64,000 nt of DNA. It comes from Candidatus Hydrogenedentota bacterium. Lineage in GTDB: Bacteria > Hydrogenedentota > Hydrogenedentia > Hydrogenedentales > JAGMZX01. Shown here piece after piece: positions 35,339-48,459 of the stretch. How positions within the stretch are numbered: the stretch's first letter is position 1; every line of letters starts with the position of its first letter. A program made the translations under genes and the position numbers. The stretch is taken from NCBI GenBank assembly GCA_018005585.1, contig JAGMZX010000009.1:6185-70184 (forward strand). Direction: 5' to 3'. The notes below the pieces were generated by a model. It was not told the origin of the DNA, did not search any database, and was given only the letters and a program-made list of their open reading frames with translations.

Positions 35339-36013
35339 ATGCCGAGAATCACCTGGATCGTGGCTATTGACGGCCCCGCGGGCGCGGGGAAGAGCACGAC
35401 GGCGCGGCGCGCCGCCGAGGCGCTCGGTTTCGCGTTTCTCGATACGGGCGCCATGTATCGCGCGGCGACGTGGTGGGCGTTGCACAACGGCGTCGACCTC
35501 GATGACGCGGCGGCGCTCGCCGCTTCCACCGAAGCCATGCAATTGGAGATAGCAGAGGCCGGGGGCAGGCAGCGGGTGACGGTCGGCGGCAGGGACGTGA
35601 CGGAAGCGATCCGCACGCCCGAAGTGACGCGGCTCATTTACAGGGTCGATCAGAATCCCGCGGTGCGGCGGCGCCTGGTCGCCCTCCAGCGGGAGCTAGG
35701 CGCGCGCGGCCCAACAGTGGCCGAAGGCCGGGATATCGGGACGGTCGTGTTTCCGGACGCCGCCTGCAAGGTCTATCTGGACGCTTCCTTGGACGAGCGG
35801 ACACGCCGCCGCGCCCGCGAACTGGAAGCCAGGGGCATCGCCGTCGATTTCGACGCGCTGCGCGCGGAAATCCACGACCGAGACGAGAAGAACAAGAACC
35901 GGCAGCAGTCGCCCTTGCGCCAGGCGGACGACGCCGTGCTGGTCGATACGACGGCTATGAGCCCCGACGAAGTCGTACACGCCATTGTGCGTCTTGCACG
36001 GGAGCGCCTGTGA
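35339..36013 (+). CDS. cmk: Cytidylate kinase
   Basis: P-loop 'IAIDGPAGAGKST', 'LDTGAMYRA', 'GRDIGTVVFPDA'. Confidence 0.9.
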   Translation: MPRITWIVAIDGPAGAGKSTTARRAAEALGFAFLDTGAMYRAATWWALHNGVDLDDAAALAASTEAMQLEIAEAGGRQRVTVGGRDVTEAIRTPEVTRLIYRVDQNPAVRRRLVALQRELGARGPTVAEGRDIGTVVFPDAACKVYLDASLDERTRRRARELEARGIAVDFDALRAEIHDRDEKNKNRQQSPLRQADDAVLVDTTAMSPDEVVHAIVRLARERL

Positions 36014-37710
36014 ACGGGGCGCCGAAACGGCAATGGCGGATTGGCGAGCAGGACCGCGCCGTCACGATGGCGCTGGCGCGCGAAGTTGGCGTCGCGCCGG
36101 TAGTGGCGAAGCTGTTGATGGCGCGCGGCGTGCATGACGGTGACGCGGCCCGTGAGTTCCTCAATCCCACGCAAAAGCAACTCAGCGACCCGTTCCTGCT
36201 TACAGACATGCTCGCCGCCGCGGACCGCATCGCCGAGGCGAGGGAGCGGGGCGAGCATGTGCGCGTGTTTGGCGATTACGATGTCGACGGGATTGCCGCG
36301 ACGGCCATCCTTTTCACGGGGCTGCGCCGGTTCGGTATCCCGCAGGTTAGTTACGGGATGCCGCAGCGGCTGGTCGAGGGGTATGGCATTAACGCCGAGC
36401 ATGTGGATGCCGCGAGCCGCGACGGCGTTTCGCTGATCATCACCGTGGACAACGGCGTGCGGGCATATGCCGCGGCCGCCCGCGCGCGGGACCTTGGGAT
36501 CGACCTCATCATCACGGACCACCATTCCATCGATGGCCCCTTGCCGGAAGCCGTGGCGGTCGTCAATCCGAAGCGCGAAACGCCGGAGCATCCGGCGTGG
36601 CGCCTTTGCGGGGCGGGTATCGCGTTCAAGCTTTCAGAGGCGCTCAACGGCACGCGCAACGACCTTGACCTGGCCGCGCTCGGCACGGTCGCCGACATTG
36701 TGCCCCTCCTTGGCGAGAACCGCGTCATTGTGACGCTGGGTCTCAAGCACATGGCGAGATACGCCCGCACGGGCCTGGCGCAGCTTGCGTCCGTGGCCGG
36801 CCTCAAGGTGCGCGAGCTACGCTCCCGCGAACTCGGTTTTCAAATCGCTCCCCGGCTCAATGCGGCGGGCCGCCTGAGCGACGGATTGACCGCGCTGCGC
36901 CTCTTGCTCGAAGAAGACACCACCGCCGCGCACGTAATGGCGCTCGAACTGCACCGGGCCAACGACGACCGCCGCGCCATCGAAAAAGCCATCTACGACG
37001 ACGCCGTTGCGGAACTGGACGGCGTATTCCGCCCGGAACAGCGCACGATCGTGCTGGCGCGGCGCGGCTGGCACCCGGGCGTCATCGGCATTGTCGCCAC
37101 GCGCGTGCAGACATGCTTTTACCGCCCCGTCTTGCTGGTCGCGATCGACGAGAACGGCATGGGCAAAGGCTCGGGCCGGAGCATCCCGGGTTTTGACCTT
37201 GTGGGCGCGCTTGGCGCGTGCGAGGGGACTTTCGAGCAATACGGCGGGCATCAGGCCGCCGCGGGGCTGACCATTCGCGAAGAGAACATCCCCGCATTCC
37301 GCGAGGCGTTCGAGGCGGAGGCGCTGCGCCGGCTTGGGCCGGACGAAATTCTGCCCGTGCTCGAAATCGACGGGCCCGTATCGCTGAGCGAACTCGACGG
37401 CGGTTTCATGAACACGCTCGCGCACCTCGAACCGTTCGGCAACAGCAATCCCGCGCCGCTCTTCTGCGCGCTGGATGTCGAACTCGTGCCGCGCTCGCCC
37501 CGCCTGTTGAACGGCGGCCATCTCAGGCTTTCCGTCCGCCAGGGCGGCCGCGTTTTTGAGGCCGTGGGTTTCGGGTTCGCCGAATGGATGCCGCCCGAGG
37601 CCGTGCCGCGCCGCCTCGACATCGCCTTCGTGCCGGAACTCAACACATACCGGAACGAGACCTACGTCCAGCTCGTGCTGCGCGACCTGCGTCCGGCTCA
37701 GGGCGGCTGA
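36010..37710 (+). CDS. recJ: Single-stranded-DNA-specific exonuclease RecJ (DHH/DHHA1)
   Basis: 'VFGDYDVDGIAA', 'IITVDNG', 'LIITDHH', DHHA1 'GGHQAAAGL'. Start overlaps the cmk stop (GTGA). Confidence 0.9.
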   Translation: MNGAPKRQWRIGEQDRAVTMALAREVGVAPVVAKLLMARGVHDGDAAREFLNPTQKQLSDPFLLTDMLAAADRIAEARERGEHVRVFGDYDVDGIAATAILFTGLRRFGIPQVSYGMPQRLVEGYGINAEHVDAASRDGVSLIITVDNGVRAYAAAARARDLGIDLIITDHHSIDGPLPEAVAVVNPKRETPEHPAWRLCGAGIAFKLSEALNGTRNDLDLAALGTVADIVPLLGENRVIVTLGLKHMARYARTGLAQLASVAGLKVRELRSRELGFQIAPRLNAAGRLSDGLTALRLLLEEDTTAAHVMALELHRANDDRRAIEKAIYDDAVAELDGVFRPEQRTIVLARRGWHPGVIGIVATRVQTCFYRPVLLVAIDENGMGKGSGRSIPGFDLVGALGACEGTFEQYGGHQAAAGLTIREENIPAFREAFEAEALRRLGPDEILPVLEIDGPVSLSELDGGFMNTLAHLEPFGNSNPAPLFCALDVELVPRSPRLLNGGHLRLSVRQGGRVFEAVGFGFAEWMPPEAVPRRLDIAFVPELNTYRNETYVQLVLRDLRPAQGG

Positions 37711-37735
37711 GACCTGCGCCGCGCCGCAGGACAGT

Positions 37736-39907
37736 TCACAGCGTATTCCGCAGGCGTTCGGTGAGGCGGGTGTTGCGGCGGGTGATCATGTTGTTGCGCA
37801 CGGCGGTGGCGATCGCCTTGGGGGTTCCGACGATGACGACGACGCGGCGCGCGCGCGTGATGGCCGTGTACAGCACGTTGCGCTGGAGCATCATGTAGTG
37901 CTGCGGCAGCAGGGCGAGCACGACCGCCGGATACTCGCTCCCCTGCGATTTGTGGACCGTCGCCGCGTAGGCGAGGCCGAGATCATCGAGGTCGTCGAAG
38001 TCGTAGAGCACTTCGTGATTGTCGAAAGAAACCCCGAGCGCGCGCTCGTCCTCGCGCACGTCCGTGATGACGCCGACGTCGCCGTTGAAGACCTCGAGTT
38101 CGTAATTGTTGCGCAATTGCATGACCTTGTCGCCTGCGCGGAAATTGCGGCGCGGCACGGGCGCGCCGTTGGGGTTGAGCGCCTGTTGCAGCGCCTCGTT
38201 GAGCCGGGTAACGCCTGCGTCGCCGCGGTGCATGGGCGCCAGCACCTGGATGTCGCGGGCCGGGTCGAAACCGAAAGAACGGGGCAGGCGGCGCTGCACC
38301 ACCTCGACGACCGTTTCGAGCGCTTGCGCCGGGTCAGAGCGCTGGATCAGGAAGAAGTCCTTTGTGTTGAACAGCGGCTGTTGACCGGTGTTGATCCGGT
38401 GCGCATTCGCGATGATCCCGCTCTCCGCCGCCTGCCGGAACACCGTATGCAGCCGCACGGTGGGGAAGCAGTTGCTCGCGATGATGTCCAGGAGCACGCT
38501 GCCGGGGCCGACGGACGGCAGTTGATCGATATCGCCGACCAGGATCAGCCGGGCGTAAGACGGCAGCGCTTTCAGCAGGTGGTGCATGAGGGCGATGTCG
38601 ATCATCGACGCCTCGTCGATGACGAGCAGCTCGACGTGCAACGGGTTATACTCGTTGCGCGTGAAGCCGCCGTTCTGCGGGCTGTATTCGAGAAGGCGGT
38701 GAATCGTGCGCGCGGGCCGGCCCGTAGCCTCTTCCATGCGTTTCGCGGCGCGGCCTGTCGGCGCGGCAAGAAGGCATACGACGCTCTTCTTCTCGTTAAT
38801 AGCCAGGATGCTCTTGATCACCGTCGTCTTGCCCGTGCCGGGACCGCCCGTGATAACCATGACCTTCGCGCTGAGCCCGATGCGCACGGCATCGCGCTGC
38901 TCCGGCGACAGTTCGATGGATTGCGCGCGCTCGGCATAGCGCAGCGCGTTGTCGACGTTCTTGATGGGGGGCAGGTCGTCCCTGGCGGCGGCCAGACGCT
39001 TCAACCGTTCGGCGCAACCGGACTCCGCGGCGTGCCAGCGCACGGCAAAGGTCCAATCGTCCTCGGCAACCATGCGGTTTTCCAGGACCAGCGCCTGAAA
39101 CGGGCTTTCAATCGCCGTTTCAGGCACTTGCAGCAGTTCCGCGCCGTCTTTCAGCAGATTTTCCCGTTTCAGGCAGACATGGCCGTCGTTTGCGGCCTCG
39201 TCCAGCACGTGCAGGAGGCCCGCCTGGATGCGTTGCGGCGCTTCGGGCGCGATGCCGAGTTCGCGCGCGATCTTGTCCGCCGTGCGGAACGCCACGCCGG
39301 AGATGTCCTGCGCCAGCCGGTACGGATTCTCGCGCAACACGGCCACGGCCCCGTCGCCGTAGCGCTTGTATATCTTGGCGGCAAGCGCCGTGCCGATGCC
39401 ATGCCCCTGCAGAAAGATCATAATCGATTGGACCGACTTCTGGCGCGCCCACGCCTCGCGGATCTGCGCCGCCCGCTTCGGGCCGATGCCGGGCACGCGC
39501 TGGAGCCGCGCCGGTTCCTCGTCGATGACGCGCAGGGTCTCGACGCCGAACGTCTCCACCAGCCGCTTCGCGTAGACCGGGCCGACGCCCTCGACCAGTC
39601 CGGAGCCGAGGTACTTCTCAATGCCCTGCACCGTCGCGGGCAGGACGGTCTGAAATGACTCGACGCGCAGTTGCCGGCCAAACCGCTTCTCGTCCACCCA
39701 GCGCCCCGTGAGCCGGACGGTTTCGCCCGGCGACACGGCCAGGAACGTGCCCACGAAGGTCAGGAGGTCCGGGCGGCCTTCCTGCTTGAGGCGGGCCACA
39801 AAGAAGCCGTTTTCGGCGTTTTCGTAGACGACGCGCTCGACCACGCCCTCGATGGTCACGAGAGGTTCGAGGTCTGTTTGTTCGGGGCTTGTGCCGCTGT
39901 TTCCCAT
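37736..39907 (-). CDS. recD2: RecD2-type ATP-dependent 5'-3' DNA helicase (RecD/TraA family, SF1B) with N-terminal HhH domains
   Basis: Walker A 'VITGGPGTGKTT', 'LLAAPTGRAAKRM', 'LLVIDEASMID', 'VGDIDQLPSVGPG', 'TVHKSQGSE'. Confidence 0.85.
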   Translation of the reverse strand: MGNSGTSPEQTDLEPLVTIEGVVERVVYENAENGFFVARLKQEGRPDLLTFVGTFLAVSPGETVRLTGRWVDEKRFGRQLRVESFQTVLPATVQGIEKYLGSGLVEGVGPVYAKRLVETFGVETLRVIDEEPARLQRVPGIGPKRAAQIREAWARQKSVQSIMIFLQGHGIGTALAAKIYKRYGDGAVAVLRENPYRLAQDISGVAFRTADKIARELGIAPEAPQRIQAGLLHVLDEAANDGHVCLKRENLLKDGAELLQVPETAIESPFQALVLENRMVAEDDWTFAVRWHAAESGCAERLKRLAAARDDLPPIKNVDNALRYAERAQSIELSPEQRDAVRIGLSAKVMVITGGPGTGKTTVIKSILAINEKKSVVCLLAAPTGRAAKRMEEATGRPARTIHRLLEYSPQNGGFTRNEYNPLHVELLVIDEASMIDIALMHHLLKALPSYARLILVGDIDQLPSVGPGSVLLDIIASNCFPTVRLHTVFRQAAESGIIANAHRINTGQQPLFNTKDFFLIQRSDPAQALETVVEVVQRRLPRSFGFDPARDIQVLAPMHRGDAGVTRLNEALQQALNPNGAPVPRRNFRAGDKVMQLRNNYELEVFNGDVGVITDVREDERALGVSFDNHEVLYDFDDLDDLGLAYAATVHKSQGSEYPAVVLALLPQHYMMLQRNVLYTAITRARRVVVIVGTPKAIATAVRNNMITRRNTRLTERLRNTL

Positions 39908-40047
39908 GTCGGGCCTGCTTCCGGTTCGCACTTGACCACGAGTAGCGGCCAAGATACGGGAATGGCGGCACGCCGCGCAAAATGGCCTTGCGCCGGCCTT
40001 TTTAAAATAGGTAAAGTAAGCCCAAACTTCCGGAGGAAGGGCGACCC

Positions 40048-40968
40048 ATGCGCGATGTAGCGGCCATATGCTGTCTGGGCTTGATCATAGCCGTTGCCTC
40101 CGGCTGCGAGGCGGGCGGCGGGGGCAAGGTCATCGGCGCCGCGATGCTCACGGCGACGCACGTGTTCTACCAGGACCTGGTAGAAGAGATGGAGGCGGCG
40201 GCGAAGGAACAGGGCTTCACGCTGCGCGTCCAGTACGCGGAATTCAACAGTCAGCGGCAAGTTGAGCAGATCGAGATGTTTATCGCTCAGGGCGTTAACG
40301 CCCTGATCATCGCGCCGACGGACTCGAGCGGCATGGGCCCGGCCATCGCGGCCGCGCGCGCGCGCGGGATACCCGTGTTTACGGCCGACATTGCCGCGAA
40401 AGATGCGGACGTGGTCAGCCATATCGCCTCGGACAACCACCAGGGCGGCGCAATCCTCGCGGAATACCTGGCGGGATTGCTCGGCGGCAAGGGTACGGTC
40501 GCGGTCATCGACAATCCCGAGGCGACATCCGTCCAGGACCGTGTGCGCGGCTTCGAGGAGACCCTGGCCAAACACCCGGATATCCGCATCGTGCAAAAGG
40601 CGCCGGGCGAGGGGCAGCGCGACAAGGCGCACAGCGCCGCCGAGAAGCTCTTGTCGGCCTATCCCGACCTGAGCGCGATCTTTGGCGTCAACGACGATTC
40701 GGCCCTGGGCGCGCTGGCGGCGGTTGAGGCGGCGGGGCTGCAGGACAAGGTCATCGTGGTGGGGTTCGACGGCACGCCCGAGGCCCGTGCGGCCATCCAG
40801 GCGGGCAAGGCGCTGAAAGCGGATACGGTGCAGTATCCGCGCGAGATTGGCCGGAAGACCATCGAGACGGTCGCGGCGTTCCTGCGCGGCGAGCGTGTGC
40901 CGAAGCAGGTCGACGTGCAGGTGGGCATCATCGACAAGGCGAAGTTGGACGCGGAGCAGGGGCCATGA
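40048..40968 (+). CDS. Sugar ABC transporter substrate-binding lipoprotein (CUT2 / ribose-type periplasmic binding protein)
   Basis: Lipobox 'AVASGC'; PBP type-I pattern 'FIAQGVNALIIAP...IPVFTADI...VGFDGTPEA'. Confidence 0.85.
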   Translation: MRDVAAICCLGLIIAVASGCEAGGGGKVIGAAMLTATHVFYQDLVEEMEAAAKEQGFTLRVQYAEFNSQRQVEQIEMFIAQGVNALIIAPTDSSGMGPAIAAARARGIPVFTADIAAKDADVVSHIASDNHQGGAILAEYLAGLLGGKGTVAVIDNPEATSVQDRVRGFEETLAKHPDIRIVQKAPGEGQRDKAHSAAEKLLSAYPDLSAIFGVNDDSALGALAAVEAAGLQDKVIVVGFDGTPEARAAIQAGKALKADTVQYPREIGRKTIETVAAFLRGERVPKQVDVQVGIIDKAKLDAEQGP

Positions 40969-42533
40969 AGACGCAAATTCCCGGACAAGGCCGGGTCATT
41001 CTCGAGATGCGGGGCGTCTCGAAGTCGTTTCCCGGCGTGAAGGCGCTGGACCGTGCGGAACTCGAGGTGCGCGCGGGCGAGGTGCACTGCCTCGTGGGCG
41101 AGAACGGCGCCGGGAAATCGACCTTGATGAAAATCCTCGCGGGCGCAGTCCCTCTGGACGAGGGCGAGATCCGCATCGACGGGCAACCGGTTCATGTTCG
41201 CTCGCCGCACCATGCCCAGCAACTGGGCATCAGCATGATCTACCAGGAATTCAACCTCAGCCCGTACTTGAGCGTGGCCGAGAATATCTTTCTCGGACGC
41301 GAGCCGCGTTACGCGCGCACGCCATTCGTGAATTGGCAGGCCATGTACGACCAGGCGCGCGAACTGCTACGCCGCATCAACGTCGACATCGACGTGCGCC
41401 GCCCGGTCAATGAACTCAGCATAGCCCAGCAGCAGATGGTCGAAATCGCGAAGGCGCTCTCTTTCGCGGCGAAGGTCATCGTGATGGACGAGCCTTCCGC
41501 CACGCTGACCGAGCATGAGTTGAACGCCTTGTTCAAGCTGATTCATGAACTCAAGCGTCAGGGTGTGGGCATTATCTACATCTCGCACCGGCTCGAGGAA
41601 CTCTTCGAGACCGGCGACCGCGTCACGATCATGCGAGATGGCAAATACGTGGGCCGCCTCGACATCAGCGCGATTACCGAACGGCGCGACGACCCGGAGC
41701 GTGCGGCGAAAATCACGGCGACACGGGACGAGATCATCCGCATGATGGTGGCGCGGAAGCTCGAAGAGGGCCTGTTTCCCAAAGAGAAGTTCCATCGCGG
41801 TGAACAGATTCTGCGCGTCGAAGGCTTGTGCCGCTACGGCGTATTTCATGACATCAACTTCTCCGTGCACAAGGGCGAGATCGTCGGGCTTACCGGGCTG
41901 GTTGGCGCGGGCCGGACCGAGGTGGCGCGCGCTATTTTCGGCGCGGACCCGCTGGACGAAGGCACGATCTATCTCGATGGGAAGCCGATCGAAGTGCGTT
42001 CCCCGCAGGACGCAATCCGGCACGGAATCGGCCTCCTGACGGAGGACCGCAAGAATCAGGGGCTCATCCTGGGGATGACGGTGCGGGAGAATACGTCGCT
42101 GGCGAACCTCAAGCAACTGGTGCGGGGGTTGTTCTTCTTGGACAAGCGCAAAGAGCGCGATGCCGCGGCCCGGCTGTCGCGAGACCTGGAGATACGCACG
42201 CCCACGGTGGAAACCGCGGTACAGACGCTGAGCGGCGGCAATCAGCAGAAGGTAGTGCTGGCGAAGTGGCTGTTCACGCAGTCGAAGGTGCTGATCTTTG
42301 ACGAACCGACGCGCGGCATTGATGTCGGCGCGAAGGTGGCCATATATGAACTCATGAACAAGCTGGTACGGCAGGGCGTCGGGGTGCTCATCATTTCGAG
42401 CGAATTGCTCGAAGTCATCGGCATGTGCGACCGCATTCTCGTGATGAACAGCGGGTGGATGCCTAACGAGGCTTCGCGGGAATTGCAGAACTGGCCTTCG
42501 CATGAATTGACGCATGCGGAAGTGAACGCGTAG
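40965..42533 (+). CDS. Sugar ABC transporter ATP-binding protein with duplicated NBDs (RbsA/MglA type)
   Basis: Two Walker A sites ('GENGAGKST', 'GLVGAGRTE') and two signature motifs ('LSIAQQQMVEIAKAL', 'LSGGNQQKVVLAKWL'). Confidence 0.9.
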   Translation: MKTQIPGQGRVILEMRGVSKSFPGVKALDRAELEVRAGEVHCLVGENGAGKSTLMKILAGAVPLDEGEIRIDGQPVHVRSPHHAQQLGISMIYQEFNLSPYLSVAENIFLGREPRYARTPFVNWQAMYDQARELLRRINVDIDVRRPVNELSIAQQQMVEIAKALSFAAKVIVMDEPSATLTEHELNALFKLIHELKRQGVGIIYISHRLEELFETGDRVTIMRDGKYVGRLDISAITERRDDPERAAKITATRDEIIRMMVARKLEEGLFPKEKFHRGEQILRVEGLCRYGVFHDINFSVHKGEIVGLTGLVGAGRTEVARAIFGADPLDEGTIYLDGKPIEVRSPQDAIRHGIGLLTEDRKNQGLILGMTVRENTSLANLKQLVRGLFFLDKRKERDAAARLSRDLEIRTPTVETAVQTLSGGNQQKVVLAKWLFTQSKVLIFDEPTRGIDVGAKVAIYELMNKLVRQGVGVLIISSELLEVIGMCDRILVMNSGWMPNEASRELQNWPSHELTHAEVNA

Positions 42534-42562
42534 GCGCTGCGCGCCGGAAGAGGAGCGAAATC

Positions 42563-44197
42563 ATGATGCAAAAGAAGCAACCGGCGGGGGGAGGAAAGAA
42601 GAAGGGAAAGGCTTCGCCCAAGAAGAAGGAACAGCTCCCGCCGCAGGCGACCGCTGGCGGCAAACCGGCGCAGGAAACGCCGGAGGAGTCGGTGCTCGTC
42701 CGTGAAGCGGCGCGGAAAGCGGCTGAAGCGGTGAAGGCTCAGCCGGGTGCGCCCGCGGAACCGCCGCTGCGCCTCGAAGTCGAGGGGGGAAGAGGCGCGG
42801 CGGCCGCAGCCAAGAAGGGAGAGAAGACCGGCCAGGAAAAGATCATGGACCTGGCGACGAAGAAGATGCCGCCGCTGCCGCAGAAGGAGCGCGCCCGGTC
42901 GCGGCGCGGCTACGCGTGGCTGATTGTGGGTATCGTCGGGGTCGTCCTGGGCGTCGTCGCCGGCCCATACGTGGGCCCCAAGTTCGCGTTCTTGCCCAAT
43001 CCCCAATTGCGCGAGATTGAACGGCTGAACGGCGTCATTTCCGGGCTGCAGGTGGACATCGACGACTTGTCCGCCGCCAATACCGGCCTTGAAGGGCAGG
43101 TGGGGGCGTTGACCAGCGAGCGCGACACGCTGCAGAAACAGAAGGCCGCTCTCACGGACCACGCGGCGGCGCTGTCTTCCGCCGCGGTGAAGCTCGAGGA
43201 AGGCTGCGCTGCGGCGTATGCAGAGATTGAGCAGTTGCGCGGCAGGGTCACGGGCTTGACCACGGAACGGGACCAGTTGACGCAATCGGTGCAGACGTTG
43301 ACCTCCGAACAGGAACAGTTGCAGCAGGAACACGCGAACCTGGCCGCGCAATTCGAGCAATTGCAGCAGGACCATACCGCGCTCACCGCGGACAAGGAGC
43401 AGTTGGGGCAGGAATTGAATGCGGCGCTGGACGAGACGCGGCAACTTAAGGAGAACAATACGGGCCTGACGCAGGAGAACGCGGCTTTGACTGCGACGCT
43501 CGACAAGGCGCGGCAGGACGCCGCCGCGGCGCAGCAGGCGCACGAAGCGCTGGCCGCCGAGCATGCGGCGCTGCAGGAACGCGTCACGGCGCTCGAGCAG
43601 GAGCTTGCGCAGCAGAAGGAAGTCGCAGCGGCGGAAATGGACGCGTTGCGGAAAAATGTCGAGGCGCTGGGAACGGAGAACGCGGGCATCAAGGAAGTGC
43701 ATGAGAGCCTGACGGCGGAAAACAACACGTTGAAGGAGACGACCCGCGGCCTCACCGAAGAGAATGCGCGCCTGCGCGAAGAGAGCGAAACACTGGCGCA
43801 AGCGAAGGCTGCGCTGGAGGCCGAAATCGCGGCGGCGCGCCAGCAGGCGGAACAACTGGCCGCGCGCGCGGAGGCCATGCGGAATTATTACGTCACCAAG
43901 ATGATGGTTACCGACGCGGCGGGCACACAGAGCGTCGCGGTCGCGGAATGCGTCTTGCAGGGGGATGACGGCGCGTTTGTCTATCGCACGGTGGACGGCG
44001 CGCACGTGGGCTCCTTCGAACGCAAGCCGGAGACGGAAGGCGGCGCCTGGGGGTATCGCGAGAACCTCGATGACGCGGCGCGCGCCCAAGTCGAGCAACT
44101 GATTGCGGGGGCGCGCCCCGCGGACTACGAGGCGCGCCTGAACGCCCTCGCGGACGCTGCGCCCGCGCAACCGGCGCCGCCCGGCGATGGCGGCTGA
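42563..44197 (+). CDS. Membrane-anchored coiled-coil protein (544 aa): Lys-rich basic N-terminus, single TM, about 300-aa coiled coil, C-terminal globular domain. Embedded between the ABC ATPase and permease genes.
   Basis: TM 'YAWLIVGIVGVVLGVVAGPYVG'; heptad-like E/Q/L/A-rich run 'LTSEQEQLQQEHANLAAQFEQLQQDHTALTADKEQLGQELNAALDETRQLKENN...'. Starts 30 bp after the ATPase stop and overlaps the permease start by 11 bp. The antisense 678-aa ORF is an Arg-rich artefact. Confidence 0.7.
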   Translation: MMQKKQPAGGGKKKGKASPKKKEQLPPQATAGGKPAQETPEESVLVREAARKAAEAVKAQPGAPAEPPLRLEVEGGRGAAAAAKKGEKTGQEKIMDLATKKMPPLPQKERARSRRGYAWLIVGIVGVVLGVVAGPYVGPKFAFLPNPQLREIERLNGVISGLQVDIDDLSAANTGLEGQVGALTSERDTLQKQKAALTDHAAALSSAAVKLEEGCAAAYAEIEQLRGRVTGLTTERDQLTQSVQTLTSEQEQLQQEHANLAAQFEQLQQDHTALTADKEQLGQELNAALDETRQLKENNTGLTQENAALTATLDKARQDAAAAQQAHEALAAEHAALQERVTALEQELAQQKEVAAAEMDALRKNVEALGTENAGIKEVHESLTAENNTLKETTRGLTEENARLREESETLAQAKAALEAEIAAARQQAEQLAARAEAMRNYYVTKMMVTDAAGTQSVAVAECVLQGDDGAFVYRTVDGAHVGSFERKPETEGGAWGYRENLDDAARAQVEQLIAGARPADYEARLNALADAAPAQPAPPGDGG

Positions 44198-45176
44198 GCC
44201 GCGCCCAATCGACGCCGCAACGCGCCGCCTGCTCGTGTTCGGGCCGCTGCTGGCGGCGTTGTTCGTCGAGGTGATCATTTTTGAGTTTGTCGGACGGTAT
44301 CAGGGGAAACCGTCCTTCTTTTCTTTCGACAACGCAATCCTGATCCTGAATCAGTCCTCCGTGCACGGAGTCGTTGCCGTAGGGATGACTTTCGTAATCC
44401 TCACGGGCGGTATTGACCTTTCAGCGGGCTCGATGCTCGCGTTCGCGGGCGTGATCTGCGCGCTTGTGACCCGGTACGGAGGCGAACCGGCGGCGCCGTG
44501 GATCGGCGGCGGCTGGATTGCGGCCTTGGTCTTGGGCGCGGGCGCGGGCGCGCTTGTCGGGTTGCTGGTCACGCGCTTCGCCATTCCGCCGTTCATCGCG
44601 ACGCTTGCGCTGATGAGTTCGCTTCGCGGATTGGGCAACCTGATCACCGACGGCAAGCCCGTATCGCCTTTGCCTGACCTTTACGCTCAGGTGGGCCGCT
44701 ACCAATTGTTCGGGCACGTGCCCGTGAGCGTGTTGTTCTTTGTCGCCGTGCTCGTGTGCGGGGCCGTGCTGCTCAACATGACGCAATTCGGCCGGTACGT
44801 CTACGCCATCGGCGGCAGCGAGGAATCGGCCCGGCTCAGCGGCGTGAACGTCGCCCGCGTCAAGGTCAAGGTTTACATGTTGTGCAGCGCGCTCACCGCG
44901 TTGGCCGGGCTTATGCTCTCGTCGCGGCTCGGCGCGGGCAGCCCGAAGGTCGGCGTCGGCGACGAACTCGCCGTGATCGCCGCGGTCGTCGTGGGCGGCA
45001 CCAGTCTCAGCGGCGGCCGCGGCAGCGTCGTCGGGACCTTCGTCGGGCTGCTTGTGGTCTCGGTGCTCAACAGCGGCCTCACCTGGATCGGCGTCGAGAC
45101 CTTCGGCCAGCAGGTCACGCTCGGGCTGGTCATCCTCGCGGCCGTCCTGCTCGACAAGCTCAAGGGGCAGGCGTGA
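44187..45176 (+). CDS. Sugar ABC transporter permease (RbsC/CUT2 family)
   Basis: 10-TM-type hydrophobic profile with conserved 'ILTGGIDLSAGSMLAFAGV', 'YVYAIGGSEESARLSGVNV'. Confidence 0.85.
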   Translation: MAAEPRPIDAATRRLLVFGPLLAALFVEVIIFEFVGRYQGKPSFFSFDNAILILNQSSVHGVVAVGMTFVILTGGIDLSAGSMLAFAGVICALVTRYGGEPAAPWIGGGWIAALVLGAGAGALVGLLVTRFAIPPFIATLALMSSLRGLGNLITDGKPVSPLPDLYAQVGRYQLFGHVPVSVLFFVAVLVCGAVLLNMTQFGRYVYAIGGSEESARLSGVNVARVKVKVYMLCSALTALAGLMLSSRLGAGSPKVGVGDELAVIAAVVVGGTSLSGGRGSVVGTFVGLLVVSVLNSGLTWIGVETFGQQVTLGLVILAAVLLDKLKGQA

Positions 45177-45284: not shown

Positions 45285-45312
45285 TTGCGTGTGGGCCTCG
45301 AATTGCTACAAT
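45285..45312 (+). promoter_or_regulatory. Sigma70-like promoter TTGCGT-N16-TACAAT (-10 preceded by TG) upstream of the sulfatase gene
   Basis: Read directly. Confidence 0.4.
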
Positions 45313-45338
45313 GCGCGGGGAAACGGAAGGAAGGGACC

Positions 45339-46826
45339 ATGCGAGACGGAACGACGCGCCGGGACTTCATGAAACTTGCGGGCGCCGCCGCGATGGGCGC
45401 CGCGGTCGGGGAACGGGCGGAAGCGCAGGAAGCCGCCAAGCCGGGCGCGCGCAACATCGTATTCATCCTCACGGATGACCAACGTTTCGACGCGCTGGGC
45501 ATGCTCAACCCCTATTTCGAGACGCCTGCGCTGGACGCGCTCGTCCGGGGCGGAATCCTGTTCGATCGCGCGTTCGTCACGACGTCGCTGTGTTCGCCGA
45601 GCCGCGCCTCCATACTTACCGGCCAGTACGCGCACCGGCACGGTATTCTCGACAACAACACCCTGCTGCCGGAATCCACGCCGACGTTTCCCCGGGAACT
45701 GAAGCGGGGCGGCTACGAGACCGCCTACGTCGGCAAGTGGCACATGGGCGGGTCCACCGACGCGCCGCAGCCGGGGTTCGACCATTGGGTGTCGTTTCGC
45801 GGCCAGGGCGTGTACCGGGACCCGACCTTCAACATCAACGGTGAGCAGGTGAAGCAGGAGGGCTACGTGACGGACCTGATCACGGATTACGCGGAGGAAT
45901 TCATTCGCAAGCCGCATTCGGGCCCGTTCCTGCTTTACGTCGGGCACAAGGCGGTGCACGCCGATTTCCAGCCCGCGCCGCGCCACGCGGGAAGCTACGC
46001 GGACCGGACCTATCCGCGCCCGGCGTCCATGGCCGATACGGAGGAGAACTATCGCGGCAAGCCGGCCTGGGTGCGCGCGCAGCGGCGCAGTTGGCACGGC
46101 GTGGACGGGATGTACAATAACACGACCGATTTCGACCGTTTTACGCGGGAATATGCGGAGACGCTGCGCGCGGTCGACGACAGCGTGGCCCGGGTTGTTC
46201 AAGCGCTGAGCGAGACGGACCAGTTGGACTCCACGATCATCGTGTTTACTTCGGACAACGGTTTTCAGTTCGGCGAACACGGCCTGATCGACAAGCGCAC
46301 CATGTACGAAGCCTCGATTCGTGTTCCGTTGATTGTTCATTGCCCGGGACTGTTTGCGGGCGGGCAGCGCCGCCGTGAAATGATCCTGAACATCGACTTC
46401 GCACCGACTTTCATCGAGGCGGCGGGCCTGCCCATACCCGACACCGTTCAGGGCGCTTCGTTCTACGGGCTGCTGGACGGATCGCGCACGGACTGGCGCG
46501 ACGCCTGGCTGTACGAGTATTTCTGGGAGCGGTCGTTTCCGCAGACGCCGTCCGTGCTGGGTGTGCGCACGGACCGCTACAAGTTCCTGCAGTATCACGG
46601 CGTCTGGGACCGCTACGAATTGTACGACCTCGACGCGGACCCCGGCGAGAGGAACAACCTGCTCGCGGATTTCCAGGTCGCGGCGGAAGGCGGCACGCTG
46701 GACGCGTTGATCGCTCGCAGGGCGAAGGGCGAACTGAAGGAGACTTATCAGCAAATGCGGAGCACTCTGGACCGGCTCCTTGCCGAAGCGGATTGTGCGG
46801 CGGAACCCAACTGGCATGTATGGTGA
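45339..46826 (+). CDS. Sulfatase (arylsulfatase/formylglycine-dependent family) with twin-arginine signal peptide
   Basis: Tat motif 'TRRDFMKLAGAAAMGAA'; sulfatase signature 'CSPSRASILTGQY' and 'NIVFILTDDQRFDALG'. Confidence 0.9.
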   Translation: MRDGTTRRDFMKLAGAAAMGAAVGERAEAQEAAKPGARNIVFILTDDQRFDALGMLNPYFETPALDALVRGGILFDRAFVTTSLCSPSRASILTGQYAHRHGILDNNTLLPESTPTFPRELKRGGYETAYVGKWHMGGSTDAPQPGFDHWVSFRGQGVYRDPTFNINGEQVKQEGYVTDLITDYAEEFIRKPHSGPFLLYVGHKAVHADFQPAPRHAGSYADRTYPRPASMADTEENYRGKPAWVRAQRRSWHGVDGMYNNTTDFDRFTREYAETLRAVDDSVARVVQALSETDQLDSTIIVFTSDNGFQFGEHGLIDKRTMYEASIRVPLIVHCPGLFAGGQRRREMILNIDFAPTFIEAAGLPIPDTVQGASFYGLLDGSRTDWRDAWLYEYFWERSFPQTPSVLGVRTDRYKFLQYHGVWDRYELYDLDADPGERNNLLADFQVAAEGGTLDALIARRAKGELKETYQQMRSTLDRLLAEADCAAEPNWHVW

Positions 46827-46888: not shown

Positions 46889-47413
46889 ATGGTTCAGAGC
46901 ACAATGCCCGCCGCGGTGCGGCAGTATGTAACGGTAATGCGCCTGCTGGGCGTAGTCTACGCGGTTGCCGGGTGCGTCTTTTTCTTCTCTCCAAAGTTCG
47001 TTTTCTGGCTGCTGAACATGTTGCCCAGCATAACGACATCGCTGGCCCCGCTCCCGGAGAGCACGGAGTTCTTCTGGGTCTCGCTCACGTTCTCCATGAT
47101 GGCCATGCTCAGCGCGCTGTCTTTCGCCGCGGCCGCCGCGCCGCAGCAGCGCAGCTACGCCTGGATCCAAGTCCTCGCGAAAGTGGTGTCCAGCCTGGGT
47201 CTTTTCTATTACTTCATGCATCATCATGTTGACGGCAAGCCCGTCTTCGGCTACCTGGCCGGTGTTATCACGGACCTGCCCATCGCGATCCTGGTGCTTA
47301 TCCTGACCCTCCGCGCGGCTATAGCGGGGCGCGCGCCGGCCGCGGGCGCGCCGGACACGGGAGCGGACGCGCCGGACACGGGAGCGGACGCGCCGCCCAA
47401 GAGCGAGGAGTAG
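46889..47413 (+). CDS. Small 4-TM membrane protein (hypothetical) with C-terminal APDTGAD tandem repeat
   Basis: Four hydrophobic segments; 6 bp upstream of the tocopherol-cyclase-like gene. Confidence 0.5.
   Translation: MVQSTMPAAVRQYVTVMRLLGVVYAVAGCVFFFSPKFVFWLLNMLPSITTSLAPLPESTEFFWVSLTFSMMAMLSALSFAAAAAPQQRSYAWIQVLAKVVSSLGLFYYFMHHHVDGKPVFGYLAGVITDLPIAILVLILTLRAAIAGRAPAAGAPDTGADAPDTGADAPPKSEE
47349..47390 (+). repeat. Perfect 21-bp tandem direct repeat x2 (cgccggacacgggagcggacg), encoding APDTGAD-APDTGAD
   Basis: Read directly. Confidence 0.8.
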
Positions 47414-47418
47414 CGGTC

Positions 47419-48459
47419 ATGGGGCAGCGCGGCACGCTCGCCTCGGGGAACCGGCCGCTCTGGAGCCCTGCGCTCGAAGGGCCCGGACGCGGTTTTCAGG
47501 AAGTGTGGTACCTCAAGCTCAATGACGCAGGCGCGGGCCGCGCGCTCTGGCTGCGGTTTACGATCCTGGTGCGCAGCGACGGCTCAAAACGTATCGCGGA
47601 GACGTGGGCCATCGCGTTTCACCGCACGGACGGCAGCGTACTCAAGACGGCGCTCAAGCACACGCGACGGCTTGACGTTTTTGTGCCCGGCGCGGAGGAA
47701 GAAATGCCCAGCCTGCGCATCGGCAACTGCTTCTTCTCCGAAAACGCCACGGGTGGCGAACTCCAGGACAAGGGGCGCAGCATCCGCTGGGACTTGACGA
47801 TGCGGCCGGAACGTGACCTGGGTTTCGATTTCGTGCCTCAGTCCCTGGCGCGGGCGCGGCTGGTCAAGAATACGGCCCTGACCGTGTTCGAGGACCTGCG
47901 TTTCAACGGCTGGAGCGAGGTGGATGGCCAACGCCACGAGTGGCGCGACGCCCCAGGCATGCAGGGGCACCTTGCCGGGCCGAAAAACGGCCACTCCTGG
48001 GTCTGGGGCCACTGCAACACGTTTCGGGACGAACAAGGAAACCCGGTGGACTGCGTGTGGGACGGGTTGATGGCTCGCGCGCGCCTGGGCCGCGCCAAGG
48101 GCACGCCTCCGTTGACGAGCATGCTGATTTTCCACGAGGGGCGTGCATACCGTCTCAACCGTACGCGTCAGGCCCTGCGCACTCCGTCCCACGCCGATGA
48201 CACGGGATGGAGCTTCGACGCGCGCTTCCAATCGATCACGTTTCACGGCCAAGTGCGCGCGGCGCGCGGCCAGTTCGCGGGCGTCACCTACGAAGACACC
48301 GACGGGAGCCTCTTGTACTGCTACAATTCGAAGGTGTCGGACATGACGATCCGGGTACGGCGCGGGGACGCGCTCGAGCGGACGCTTACCGCCGTGGGTA
48401 CGGTCGCCTTCGAAGTCGTGACGCGCGAACGTTGGGCCGATGTGCCCCTCCTGATCTGA
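47419..48459 (+). CDS. Tocopherol cyclase-like family protein (bacterial homolog of VTE1/SXD1; function unknown)
   Basis: N-terminal 'FQEVWYLKLND' resembles the cyclase 'FFEGWYFKV' block. 'HEWRDAPGMQGHLAGPKNGHSWVWGHCNTF' resembles '[30 protein letters not shown]' of plant/cyanobacterial tocopherol cyclase, from memory. Confidence 0.6.
   Translation: MGQRGTLASGNRPLWSPALEGPGRGFQEVWYLKLNDAGAGRALWLRFTILVRSDGSKRIAETWAIAFHRTDGSVLKTALKHTRRLDVFVPGAEEEMPSLRIGNCFFSENATGGELQDKGRSIRWDLTMRPERDLGFDFVPQSLARARLVKNTALTVFEDLRFNGWSEVDGQRHEWRDAPGMQGHLAGPKNGHSWVWGHCNTFRDEQGNPVDCVWDGLMARARLGRAKGTPPLTSMLIFHEGRAYRLNRTRQALRTPSHADDTGWSFDARFQSITFHGQVRAARGQFAGVTYEDTDGSLLYCYNSKVSDMTIRVRRGDALERTLTAVGTVAFEVVTRERWADVPLLI

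What the first reader, a model, noticed from the sequence alone, without database searches (positions are those of the whole stretch)
42563..44197. Membrane-anchored coiled-coil protein embedded inside a CUT2 sugar ABC transporter operon
The gene order is SBP (40048), duplicated-NBD ATPase (40965), a 544-aa ORF, then permease (44187). The 544-aa ORF starts 30 bp after the ATPase stop and overlaps the permease start by 11 bp. It encodes a Lys-rich basic N-terminus, one TM helix, about 300 aa of heptad-like E/Q/L/A coiled coil and a C-terminal about 110-aa globular part. CUT2 (ribose/galactose-type) transporters normally consist only of SBP, ATPase and permease. An additional long coiled-coil membrane component in the middle of the operon is not a described transporter subunit. 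It could be a tether/scaffold, a regulatory or sensor partner, or an unrelated gene that has invaded the operon.
Basis: partly seen in the sequence, partly recalled or inferred. Interest (0 to 1): 0.7.

Follow-up and report, generated by a model that had tools for sequence, protein, structure and literature searches.

The report
Coiled-coil membrane protein inside sugar-transporter operon
A real, conserved gene for a membrane-anchored protein with a very long rod sits inside a ribose-type sugar ABC importer operon of a small group of Hydrogenedentota bacteria, and it belongs to a previously undescribed protein family of that phylum whose function is still unknown.

Summary
ORF 42563-44197 (544 aa) lies between a two-domain RbsA-like ATPase gene and an RbsC-like permease gene. 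It starts 29 nt after the ATPase stop and overlaps the permease start by 11 nt. It is a real gene: GC3 is 0.82 and dN/dS is 0.21. The order SBP, ATPase, coiled-coil gene, permease is seen in full in two other lineages, and a third, partial contig shows the gene just before the permease. The closest insert-free operons (72-75% permease identity) lack it. The protein is predicted N-in. It has a Lys-rich cytoplasmic tail, one TM helix, an invariant juxtamembrane motif (GPYVGPKFAFLPNPQLREIERL), and a roughly 290-residue leucine zipper of conserved length (286-300 aa). It ends in a roughly 90-residue beta/alpha domain with no match among solved structures. An exhaustive search found about 60 distant relatives; every one that carries a source name is from Hydrogenedentota. 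These 560-630 aa "long forms" share the TM motif and C-terminal domain. They are not in transporter operons. They sit after a TPR-protein gene and, in 4 of 5 loci, an RbsD/FucU gene. Their non-coil region matches DUF3450 (TtpB of Vibrio TonB2 systems) weakly but specifically. ATPases of insert-bearing operons share a 15-aa insertion and a remodelled C-terminus. The best reading is a recruited accessory partner of the importer, acting as tether or sensor. The function is untested.

The parts
40048..40968 (+). Substrate-binding protein gene (306 aa), RbsB-like, with a lipobox-like VASGC after the signal peptide
   Evidence: Peripla_BP_4 E 7.9e-63. Best NCBIfam hit is RbsB at 1.8e-49, below the equivalog cut-off. 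It is 80% identical to the L001 orthologue. A [VA][AS]GC motif is present in all homologues aligned.
40965..42533 (+). Fused two-NBD ATPase gene (522 aa), RbsA-like
   Evidence: Two ABC_tran stretches. RbsA model 2.2e-171, below the equivalog cut-off. It is 87% identical to L001.
41676..41720 (+). 15-aa insertion in the ATPase (aa 238-252, TERRDDPERAAKITA), present only in operons that carry the coiled-coil gene
   Evidence: Alignment A3. The insertion is present in window, L001 and L004 and absent in L005 and L007. The L016 ATPase also lacks it.
42447..42530 (+). Remodelled ATPase C-terminus (SGWMPN..S.EL..WPSHELT.AEVNA) replacing the canonical EGRLAG.L.R.EATQE.IMRLATG
   Evidence: The canonical C-terminus is seen in the insert-free L005, L007, L015 and L016.
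42534..42562 (+). 29-nt intergenic spacer with Shine-Dalgarno-like GAGGAG (42550-42555)
   Evidence: Sequence read. The fold is not unusually stable, z -0.99. No promoter-like site was found. No Rfam match.
42563..44197 (+). The 544-aa bitopic coiled-coil protein gene (short form of a Hydrogenedentota-specific family)
42563..42910 (+). Predicted cytoplasmic tail (aa 1-116): Lys-rich start, conserved helix ESVLVREAARKAAEAV (aa 42-57), conserved motif KTGQEKIMDLATKKMPPLP (aa 88-106)
   Evidence: Net charge +14. The blocks are largely invariant across window, L001 and L004 and recur in L017. dN/dS is 0.04 for aa 41-60.
42911..42973 (+). Single transmembrane helix (aa 117-137)
   Evidence: Kyte-Doolittle maximum 2.26 at aa 120-138. 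No other hydrophobic segment ranks among the top windows.
42962..43027 (+). Juxtamembrane motif GPYVGPKFAFLPNPQLREIERL (aa 134-155), the family signature shared with the long forms (GP[YF]...[FL]PNP)
   Evidence: Identical in window and L001, one substitution in L004 (A142S), and diverged after LPNPQ in L017. Found in many long-form members.
43004..43882 (+). Leucine-zipper rod (aa 148-440), with an unbroken heptad register from 155 to 344, one 4-residue shift near 350, then 362 to 432
   Evidence: Heptad analysis. AF2 helices 147-296 and 304-440. Rod length is 297, 300, 286 and 300 aa in the four short-form proteins. Only generic coiled-coil profile hits.
43883..44155 (+). C-terminal beta/alpha domain (aa 441-531): five strands then two helices. 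Residues aligned to the family-invariant columns are E462, G467, D478, G479, G483 and R518, plus the near-invariant C463 and R475
   Evidence: Gap-poor alignments with about 45 long-form members. AF2 with that alignment gives pLDDT 84.3 and pTM 0.70. There is no significant structural or sequence match.
44187..45176 (+). Permease gene (329 aa), RbsC-like. Its ATG lies 11 nt inside the coiled-coil gene
   Evidence: BPD_transp_2 7.8e-40. RbsC model 1.5e-71. It is 90% identical to L001. The same 11-nt overlap occurs in L001.

Best explanation
The 544-aa protein is a lineage-specific accessory partner of the Rbs-like CUT2 sugar importer. It derives from a Hydrogenedentota-specific family of bitopic envelope proteins. 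Shown: it is a real gene under purifying selection. It is packed tightly between the ATPase and permease genes, and the four-gene cassette is conserved as a unit. Its architecture is a basic tail, one TM helix, a conserved juxtamembrane motif, a rod of about 290 aa with conserved length, and a small conserved beta/alpha domain. Inferred: the N-terminus is cytoplasmic, so the rod and end domain are extracytoplasmic. The rod is a parallel coiled coil, up to about 43 nm if straight, that holds the end domain at a fixed distance from the inner membrane. The TM helix and the invariant segments on both sides of it dock on the transporter. The Lys-rich tail contacts the RbsA-like ATPase, whose two clade-specific changes occur only with this gene. 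The distal domain binds something in the outer envelope, such as an outer-membrane or cell-wall component or a glycan. In this reading the protein tethers the importer to, or senses, the site where substrate enters the periplasm.
For: It is a real gene: GC3 and dN/dS. The junctions are tight and preserved: 28-29 nt after the ATPase gene, and an 11-17 nt overlap with, or direct abutment to, the permease gene in window, L001, L004 and L017. Only the four cassette genes are shared between the window and L001/L002, and the flanks differ. The nearest operons without the gene (72-75% permease identity; L005, L007, L015, L016) have ATPase directly followed by permease. The ATPase insertion and altered C-terminus co-occur with the gene in 3 of 3 operons and are absent in 4 of 4 without it. 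Topology follows from the charge distribution. The segments flanking the TM helix are highly conserved, while the rod keeps little beyond its heptad Leu positions and its length. The wider family recurs next to sugar-related genes (RbsD/FucU in 4 of 5 loci, GH38 in one), so it is linked to Rbs-type genes in two independent arrangements. One relative carries a Ser/Thr kinase domain in place of the tail, which fits an extracytoplasmic binding or sensing module. The non-coil part of the long forms matches DUF3450/TtpB, an essential accessory of a trans-envelope uptake system (PMC6957404).
Against: There is no direct evidence of physical interaction or of any effect on transport. The insert-bearing operons form one clade, so the ATPase features could be plain shared ancestry rather than co-adaptation (3 against 4 sequences). 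The permease and SBP show no clade-specific indels. The long-form relatives are never inside transporter operons in the five loci examined, so the family's ancestral role is not transport-subunit-like. Topology rests only on the positive-inside rule. A straight rod of about 43 nm is longer than a typical periplasm, and the envelope of this phylum is not described. The window protein itself has no DUF3450 hit.
Confidence: 0.4

Rival explanations
1. Co-transcribed bystander. The protein is an envelope structural or spacer protein with its own job, for example setting envelope spacing or anchoring another complex. Its gene landed in this operon in one lineage and stayed because excision would disturb permease expression. 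It does not work with the transporter.
For: The about 60 family relatives lie outside transporter operons, next to TPR-protein genes. Rod length is tightly conserved in both subfamilies, as expected of a spacer. Permease and SBP carry no matching changes. The insert is confined to one narrow clade.
Against: The short form differs systematically from the long form: a basic rather than acidic tail, a rod about 85 aa longer, and loss of the C-terminal Q..F.SL tail. This points to adaptation after relocation. The tail and juxtamembrane blocks are under strong constraint. The ATPase changed at two sites only where the gene is present. The position is kept across saturated synonymous divergence with different flanks.
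Confidence: 0.3
2. Trans-membrane regulator. The extracytoplasmic rod and end domain sense a ligand or an envelope state. The cytoplasmic tail then switches the RbsA-like ATPase on or off, so the protein gates the importer and has no tethering role.
For: A family member has a Ser/Thr kinase domain in place of the tail, the usual layout of a sensor with a cytoplasmic output. The tail has conserved short motifs. The ATPase C-terminus, a common site for regulatory elements in ABC importers (established knowledge, e.g. MalK), is remodelled only in these operons. The end domain's conserved E, D, R and aromatic residues would suit a small-ligand or glycan site.
Against: Signalling through a single TM helix and a rod of about 290 aa is mechanically unexplained. 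No ligand-binding fold was recognised. This reading overlaps the main explanation and cannot be separated from it with sequence data.
Confidence: 0.17
3. Periplasmic adaptor (membrane fusion protein) or MCE-like conduit. This would make the system an exporter or a trans-envelope channel.
For: The layout is superficially similar: N-terminal TM helix, long periplasmic helices, and a gene embedded in an ABC operon. AF2 on the single sequence breaks the helix at aa 297-303, which could be read as a hairpin.
Against: No HlyD, lipoyl, beta-barrel or MCE domain hit was found. The heptad register runs straight through the supposed turn, and the residues at that turn are not conserved. The transporter parts are typical importer parts, including an SBP.
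Confidence: 0.03
4. Not a functional gene: a chance long ORF in GC-rich DNA, or a decaying insertion.
For: GC-rich DNA yields long spurious ORFs. A 678-aa antisense ORF covers the same region. The first full-length word-based search found no homologue.
Against: GC3 is 0.82 against 0.74 for the antisense ORF. dN/dS is 0.21 with dS above 1. Intact orthologues occur in three further lineages, and distant homologues exist.
Confidence: 0.01

Closest known systems
TtpB (Pfam PF11932, DUF3450), accessory protein of Vibrio TonB2 systems, encoded with the TPR protein TtpD (PMC6957404). DUF3450 is also found fused to ExbB-like subunits (PMC12505986).
   Same: Both are envelope proteins with a leucine zipper followed by a non-coil C-terminal part, and both act as accessories encoded with an uptake system. 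The long-form relatives of the window protein match PF11932 in 24 of 42 sequences (best E 2.4e-9). The match lies in the non-heptad last 200 aa, not the generic coil. Like ttpB, the long-form genes sit near a TPR-protein gene.
   Different: The window protein gives no PF11932 hit, and most of the relatives' hits are below the gathering score. TtpB is about 255 aa (PMC6957404). The window protein is 544 aa, with a predicted cytoplasmic tail and its own TM anchor. No exbB, exbD or tonB gene is in the operon. The partner here is an ATP-driven inner-membrane importer, not a proton-driven Ton motor.
EnvC / PcsB with FtsEX (coiled-coil partners of a type VII ABC complex). From established knowledge.
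   Same: In both, an extracytoplasmic coiled-coil protein with a distal globular domain works with an ABC complex.
   Different: EnvC is secreted, not TM-anchored. It carries a LytM domain, binds the large periplasmic domain of FtsX, and its partner is not an importer. No LytM or CHAP hit was found here, and the RbsC-like permease has no large periplasmic domain.
Membrane fusion proteins / periplasmic adaptors (HlyD, MacA) of ABC exporters. From established knowledge.
   Same: Both have an N-terminal TM anchor and long periplasmic helices, and both are encoded inside ABC operons.
   Different: Adaptors have an alpha-hairpin flanked by lipoyl and beta-barrel domains and serve exporters that work with TolC. 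Here the heptad rod is continuous, a single small end domain follows it, no HlyD-family hit was found, and the partner is an SBP-dependent importer.
TolA / TonB (inner-membrane-anchored, periplasm-spanning proteins with a small C-terminal domain). From established knowledge.
   Same: The overall logic is shared: an N-terminal TM anchor, a long extended spacer and a small C-terminal domain positioned far from the inner membrane.
   Different: There is no sequence or fold similarity to the TonB or TolA C-terminal domains. The spacer is a heptad leucine zipper, not a Pro-rich or Ala/Lys-rich segment. There is a conserved 116-aa cytoplasmic tail, and no ExbBD or TolQR partner genes are nearby.
FtsB / FtsL / DivIC (bitopic proteins with a periplasmic leucine zipper)
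   Same: Both show N-in bitopic topology with a leucine zipper starting right after the TM helix. There are weak DivIC, ZapB and bZIP profile hits.
   Different: Those proteins are about 100 aa, with 5-6 heptads and divisome context. The hits here are generic coil similarity (DivIC E 0.2).

Membership tests
CUT2 (TC 3.A.1.2) sugar ABC importer (the host operon) | Periplasmic binding protein of the Peripla_BP_4 / RbsB type | tested here: met
   PF13407 E 7.9e-63. The RbsB model is the best NCBIfam hit.
CUT2 (TC 3.A.1.2) sugar ABC importer (the host operon) | One ATPase polypeptide with two fused nucleotide-binding domains | tested here: met
   Two ABC_tran stretches in 522 aa. RbsA, XylG and AraG models score 1e-160 to 1e-171.
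CUT2 (TC 3.A.1.2) sugar ABC importer (the host operon) | Permease of the BPD_transp_2 (RbsC/AraH) type | tested here: met
   PF02653 E 7.8e-40. RbsC model 1.5e-71.
CUT2 (TC 3.A.1.2) sugar ABC importer (the host operon) | Ribose as substrate (equivalog level) | tested here: inconclusive
   All three best hits are Rbs models, but far below the equivalog cut-offs: 168.6 against 337, 571 against 745, and 241 against 398 bits. The substrate is unknown.
DUF3450 / TtpB (PF11932) | Profile match at or above Pfam's gathering score (32.6 bits) | tested here: not met
   The full-length window protein has no PF11932 hit at E up to 0.01, and its N-terminal 170 aa and C-terminal 115 aa give none at E up to 10.
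DUF3450 / TtpB (PF11932) | Homology by transitivity through the long-form relatives | tested here: inconclusive
   24 of 42 family sequences hit PF11932 (best E 2.4e-9), while every other family is hit by 5 or fewer. The last 200 aa (non-heptad) hit almost only PF11932 in 3 of 5 cases, E 2.8e-5 to 3e-3. The C-terminal domain alone gives only 3 of 46 at E 0.056 or worse. NCBIfam shows that generic coil models can also hit 37 of 42.
DUF3450 / TtpB (PF11932) | Encoded with exbB/exbD/tonB (a Ton-type motor) | tested here: not met
   The operon holds only SBP, ATPase and permease genes. The flanks are RecJ, a RecD2-like helicase and a sulfatase. The rest of the 64-kb window was not scanned for Ton genes.
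Membrane fusion protein / periplasmic adaptor (HlyD family) | Alpha-helical hairpin flanked by lipoyl and beta-barrel domains | tested here: not met
   No HlyD-family hit was found. The heptad register is continuous through aa 297-303. A single small C-terminal domain follows the rod.
TonB / TolA | TonB_C or TolA domain III fold at the C-terminus | tested here: not met
Unnamed Hydrogenedentota family defined here (about 60 representatives) | Single TM helix followed by the GP[YF]...[FL]PNP juxtamembrane motif | tested here: met
   The window has GPYVGPKFAFLPNPQ. The same pattern is in many long-form members.
Unnamed Hydrogenedentota family defined here (about 60 representatives) | C-terminal domain with invariant E, G, D-G, G and R columns, and Y-[YF]-x-[AT]-K and AEC motifs | tested here: met
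   The alignment is gap-poor over about 110 columns with 22-34% identity to the window. Invariant columns are E462, G467, D478, G479, G483 and R518. phmmer E-values run from 1e-10 to 3e-17.
Unnamed Hydrogenedentota family defined here (about 60 representatives) | Long acidic, Pro-rich N-terminal region with GLGNLPPLSDF, DTPMFDSAFGG and PDFSPDTG motifs, and the C-terminal Q..F.SL tail | tested here: not met
   The window form has a 116-aa Lys-rich tail, with only MPPLP resembling the LPPL motif, and a Pro/Ala tail at the C-terminus. It is therefore a distinct short-form subfamily.
Unnamed Hydrogenedentota family defined here (about 60 representatives) | Gene neighbourhood: lipoprotein-like genes, a TPR-protein gene, RbsD/FucU, then the family member | tested here: not met
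   Seen in L009, L010/11, L012/13 and L014. L018 has the TPR gene only. The window has no RbsD or TPR homologue (tblastn).

The most novel reading that the evidence does not exclude
The short form turns an ordinary SBP-dependent sugar importer into a trans-envelope machine. A dimeric rod anchored beside the permease, and gripped on the cytoplasmic side by the modified RbsA-like ATPase, reaches an outer-membrane or cell-wall partner through its end domain. It either couples outer-membrane entry to inner-membrane import in space, or transmits the ATPase cycle outward. That second option would be an ATP-driven counterpart of the TonB/TtpB arrangement, and it would be the first accessory envelope-spanning subunit described for a CUT2 importer.
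Probability: 0.12. Interest if true: 0.8.

Novelty: new variant of a known kind. Interest (0 to 1): 0.5.

Why it matters
CUT2 importers are textbook three-part systems of binding protein, fused ATPase and permease. A fourth, conserved, envelope-spanning component would show that SBP-dependent importers can acquire accessory subunits, as exporters and Ton systems do. It would also give a handle on how a poorly known, uncultured phylum organises sugar capture across its envelope. Separately, the work defines a phylum-restricted protein family of about 60 representative clusters. The family has a new small domain, a rod of fixed length and a recurring link to sugar-related genes. It also has a possible remote tie to TtpB (DUF3450), whose mechanism in TonB2 systems is itself unknown, so each could inform the other.

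Tried and rejected
- **Full-length word-based search.** It returned nothing. The 8000-candidate limit was probably filled by coiled-coil proteins. Searching the C-terminal 115 aa alone found only a fragment from the same organism.
- **Genome and metagenome scans with the protein.** They gave only the L001/L002 lineage. Further lineages were reached indirectly through permease homologues and their contigs.
- **AF2 on the single full-length sequence.** pLDDT was 63.8 and below 50 in the end domain, so it was not usable for fold search. Its helix break at 297-303 was rejected as a hairpin turn, because the heptads run through it and the residues are not conserved.
- **PDB sequence and profile searches.** Nothing was found.
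- **ZapB, bZIP, crescentin, SMC and Rad50 hits.** These were rejected as generic coiled-coil similarity.
- **Promoter and terminator scan.** There were 0 promoter-like sites, and 7 terminator-like sites against 6.0 expected, so it was uninformative.
- **RNA fold of the ATPase/coiled-coil junction, and Rfam.** Nothing was found.
- **DNA tandem repeats in the rod.** None were found, so the rod is not a recent repeat expansion.
- **Clade-specific indels in the permease and SBP.** None were found.
- **Literature searches for a coiled-coil or bitopic accessory of ABC importers.** No precedent was found.
Full report
**1.

One search lists an ATG-initiated ORF at 42563..44197 (+) of 544 aa. Upstream are a 306-aa binding-protein gene (40048..40968; Peripla_BP_4, E 7.9e-63) and a 522-aa ATPase gene with two ABC_tran domains (40965..42533). 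Downstream is a 329-aa BPD_transp_2 permease gene (44187..45176).

NCBIfam ranks RbsB, RbsA and RbsC models first for the three transporter proteins. All score well below the equivalog cut-offs. The system is therefore a CUT2-type sugar importer of unknown specificity.

The sequence shows the ATPase stop codon at 42531-42533 and GAGGAG at 42550-42555. The ATG follows 7 nt later, so the spacer is 29 nt, not 30. The ORF's TGA lies 11 nt inside the permease gene.

**2. It is a real gene**

The window is about 65% G+C and full of long spurious ORFs, including a 678-aa antisense ORF over the same region. Third-position GC of the ORF is 0.82, like its neighbours (0.81-0.86). The antisense ORF has 0.74.

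Against the orthologue in L001, dN/dS is 0.21 with dS about 1.3. The SBP, ATPase and permease genes give 0.16, 0.09 and 0.10. Block aa 41-60 has dN/dS 0.04 with saturated synonymous change. Translation therefore starts at or near the annotated ATG. The start M-[MD]-[QP]-K-K is shared by all four lineages.

**3. Architecture**

- **TM helix and charge.** The only hydrophobic segment is aa 117-137. The 117 residues before it carry 27 K+R and a net charge of +14, with +4 in the 15 residues next to the helix. The remainder is net -32. By the positive-inside rule the tail is cytoplasmic and the rod and end domain are extracytoplasmic. This is an inference, not a measurement.
- **Rod register.** From aa 155 to 344 Leu occupies the same heptad position in nearly every heptad. 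After one 4-residue shift near aa 350, the pattern resumes from 362 to 432. The partner core position is often polar (N, H, K, R, Q). From general coiled-coil knowledge this favours a parallel dimer.
- **AF2 on the single sequence.** It gave two helices (147-296 and 304-440) with a break at 297-303. The heptads run through that break, and those residues are not conserved in the orthologues. I therefore read the rod as continuous. A straight rod of about 290 residues would be about 43 nm long.
- **End domain.** With an alignment of 45 distant relatives, AF2 models the last 117 residues at pLDDT 84.3 and pTM 0.70. The model has five beta-strands followed by two helices.

**4. Conservation and synteny of the short form**

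A scan of species-representative genomes found one locus, L001, a Candidatus Hydrogenedentota MAG. A metagenome scan found L002, with the same gene layout. Both have the order SBP, ATPase, coiled-coil gene, permease with the same spacings.

The coiled-coil protein is 58-63% identical between the window and L001. The SBP, ATPase and permease are 80%, 87% and 90% identical. A tblastn of 15 window genes against these loci shows that only the four cassette genes are shared, and the flanks differ. L003 is a short contig from the window's own organism.

Starting from permease homologues, I examined the neighbourhood of seven:

| Permease identity to window | Locus | Layout |
|---|---|---|
| 78% | L004 | 535-aa homologue (43% identical) between ATPase and permease |
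| 78% | L017 | partial contig; 553-aa homologue directly before the permease, ATPase region not covered |
| 72-75% | L005/L006, L007/L008, L015, L016 | ATPase directly followed by permease |

The gene is thus confined to one narrow clade of this transporter family. It has been kept at that position across saturated synonymous divergence.

Across the four short-form proteins the rod sequence diverges freely, apart from the heptad Leu positions. Its length stays at 297, 300, 286 and 300 residues. The cytoplasmic motif KTGQE[KR]IMDLATKKMPPLP is invariant or nearly so across window, L001, L004 and L017. The motif GPYVGPKF[AS]FLPNPQLREIERL is likewise nearly invariant in window, L001 and L004, and diverges after LPNPQ in L017.

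**5. The ATPase changes together with the gene**

Aligning ATPases from three insert-bearing and two insert-free operons shows two features unique to the former. One is a 15-aa insertion (aa 238-252, TERRDDPERAAKITA) near the end of the first NBD. The other is replacement of the canonical C-terminus (EGRLAG.L.R.EATQE.IMRLATG) by SGWMPN..S.EL..WPSHELT.AEVNA. This includes loss of about five residues of the last strand region.

Two more insert-free operons have the canonical C-terminus. Permease and SBP alignments show only scattered substitutions. This fits co-adaptation of the ATPase with the cytoplasmic tail. Because the insert-bearing operons form one clade, it is not proof.

**6. A wider family**

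I queried the tail, TM and end domain without the rod against 1.84 billion representative proteins. There were 64 hits at E up to 0.001, and 23 at E up to 1e-10. Two are the short form itself and two are repeat artefacts (P0123, P0179).

The rest are proteins of mostly 560-630 aa that match the end domain at 24-38% identity. Most also match a second stretch. In many, a separate motif scan finds a GP[YF]...[FL]PNP motif after the TM helix. Every one that carries a source name comes from Candidatus Hydrogenedentota, apart from one labelled only "bacterium".

These long forms differ from the short form in four ways:

- They have an acidic, Pro-rich N-terminal region of about 250-300 aa with repeated short motifs (GLGNLPPLSDF, FQDLAADSDFSPETPEIGPGP, DTPMFDSAFGG, APTQAMETPMFG, TP.PDFSPDTG).
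- Their helical region is shorter and very constant in length, with a median of 211 and a maximum of 217 residues from LPNP to EYFFA.
- That region includes a conserved non-heptad part (...AN.RR..TK..L......EG.PLTP.KY...).
- They end in a conserved Q..F.SL tail.

One member (P0164) has a Ser/Thr kinase domain (Pkinase, E 3.5e-43) in place of the N-terminal region.

**7. Context of the long forms**

In four loci the gene follows the same cluster: one or two lipoprotein-like genes, a gene for a TPR protein of about 545-573 aa, and an RbsD/FucU gene (PF05025, E 1e-31). The loci are L009, L010/L011, L012/L013 and L014. Their family proteins are only 42-47% identical to one another, and the outer flanks differ.

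The kinase-fused member follows a TPR/YfiO-like gene without rbsD. None of the five loci has ABC transporter genes within 5-10 kb. L012 has a GH38 mannosidase gene downstream, as does the insert-free transporter locus L007. The window has no RbsD or TPR homologue.

The family as a whole is therefore not a transporter subunit. It does appear beside Rbs-type sugar genes in two independent arrangements: next to rbsD in most lineages, and inside rbsB-rbsA-[gene]-rbsC in the window's clade.

**8. A possible remote tie to DUF3450/TtpB**

- **Per-member Pfam scan.** Scanning 42 family sequences one by one against Pfam, 24 hit PF11932 (DUF3450; best E 2.4e-9). No other family is hit by more than 5.
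- **Control with NCBIfam.** Generic coil models can also hit most members, for example SMC in 37 of 42, so I split five long forms.
- **Split test.** The pure-coil segment hits dozens of coiled-coil families, and DUF3450 only once in five at E 0.007. The last 200 residues hit almost nothing except DUF3450, in 3 of 5 cases. Those E-values are 2.8e-5 to 3e-3, over profile positions 81-206 of 241 and reaching into the first strands of the end domain.
- **End domain alone.** It is not significant, with 3 of 46 at E 0.056 or worse.
- **Window protein.** It has no DUF3450 hit.

DUF3450 is the domain of TtpB2. This 255-aa leucine-zipper protein is essential for the Vibrio vulnificus TonB2 outer-membrane uptake system and is encoded with the TPR protein TtpD2 (PMC6957404). 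The domain also occurs fused to ExbB-like subunits (PMC12505986). I treat this as a lead: a resemblance in kind, with membership not shown.

**9. Most likely mechanism**

Shown: a conserved gene packed tightly in the operon, an architecture with a rod of fixed length, strongly constrained segments on both sides of the TM helix, ATPase changes that occur only with the gene, and a family link to sugar genes.

Inferred: the N-in topology, a parallel dimeric rod, docking of the TM and juxtamembrane segment and of the tail on the transporter, and an end domain that binds a distal envelope partner or glycan.

I put the accessory tether or sensor reading at 0.40. A co-transcribed bystander with its own envelope role gets 0.30. 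A pure trans-membrane regulator of the ATPase gets 0.17. An adaptor or conduit gets 0.03, and a non-gene 0.01.

**10. Novelty and score**

I found no described CUT2 system with such a component. Pfam, NCBIfam and PDB searches gave nothing, and two literature searches found no precedent. The short form is rare, with four contigs and three lineages beyond the window. The family is restricted to one uncultured phylum, and no function is demonstrated.

I rate it a new variant of a known kind: an SBP-dependent importer with an added envelope-spanning partner. Interest is 0.5. The most novel reading not excluded is a trans-envelope coupling device analogous to TonB/TtpB but attached to an ATP-driven importer. 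I give it probability about 0.12.

Noticed in passing
L009, L010, L012, L014 (for example L010:6001-6800); proteins P0124-P0182: The long-form relatives have a 250-300-aa acidic, Pro-rich N-terminal region, predicted cytoplasmic. It carries five or six sharply conserved short motifs (GLGNLPPLSDF, GGLPPISDI, FQDLAADSDFSPETPEIGPGP, DTPMFDSAFGG, APTQAMETPMFG, TP.PDFSPDTG). These look like docking motifs in a disordered region. The window protein keeps only an MPPLP remnant.
   Followed up: partly
L018:1415-3739 (P0164): One family member has a Ser/Thr protein kinase domain (Pkinase E 3.5e-43) in place of the N-terminal region. The usual TM helix, helical region and end domain follow. The gene lies after a TPR/YfiO-like gene. 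The contig is short (4.6 kb), so an assembly chimera was not excluded.
   Followed up: partly
L010:3632-5332 and equivalents in L009, L012, L014: The TPR protein encoded two genes upstream of the long forms has Pfam hits only in its C-terminal third. Its N-terminus (RRFGVVASLLLLALVVLAYAPSFKGGYVWDDYS...) looks like a membrane domain. From memory, the GG[FY]VWDD motif recalls PMT/TMTC-type GT-C glycosyltransferases. This was not tested.
   Followed up: no
L016:3834-4460: In one insert-free operon the ATPase gene was called as 720 aa. The extra 210 N-terminal residues contain a TM helix and have no Pfam hit. This may be a mis-called start over a separate small gene, or a real fusion.
   Followed up: partly
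window 40048-40130; L001, L004, L005, L007, L016 SBP genes: All SBPs of this transporter group have a lipobox-like [VA][AS]GC followed by a Gly/Ser-rich linker. The binding protein is probably lipid-anchored rather than free in the periplasm.
   Followed up: partly
window 45285-46826: A sulfatase gene with a twin-arginine signal (Sulfatase 4.8e-60, SGSH_C 1.3e-41, TAT_signal) lies 108 nt downstream of the permease gene on the same strand. It is not conserved next to the cassette in L001.
   Followed up: partly
window 46889-47413 and 47419-48459: A 174-aa hydrophobic protein with no Pfam hit is followed by a 346-aa protein with a weak, sub-threshold tocopherol-cyclase match (E 1.7e-4).
   Followed up: no
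L007:7084-9882 and L012:7346-10102: A GH38 alpha-mannosidase gene lies directly downstream of an insert-free Rbs-like transporter in one genome. In another genome it lies downstream of a long-form family gene. This hints that both belong to the same carbohydrate-use neighbourhoods.
   Followed up: no
window 16520-21580 (-): A very long ORF of 1686 aa lies on the minus strand. It was not examined.
   Followed up: no
window 36010-39952: Upstream of the operon are a RecJ gene (DHH, DHHA1, RecJ_OB) and, on the opposite strand, a RecD2-type helicase gene (HHH_RecD2, AAA_30, SH3_13). Neither has a homologue in the 21.5 kb of L001 that was fetched.
   Followed up: partly
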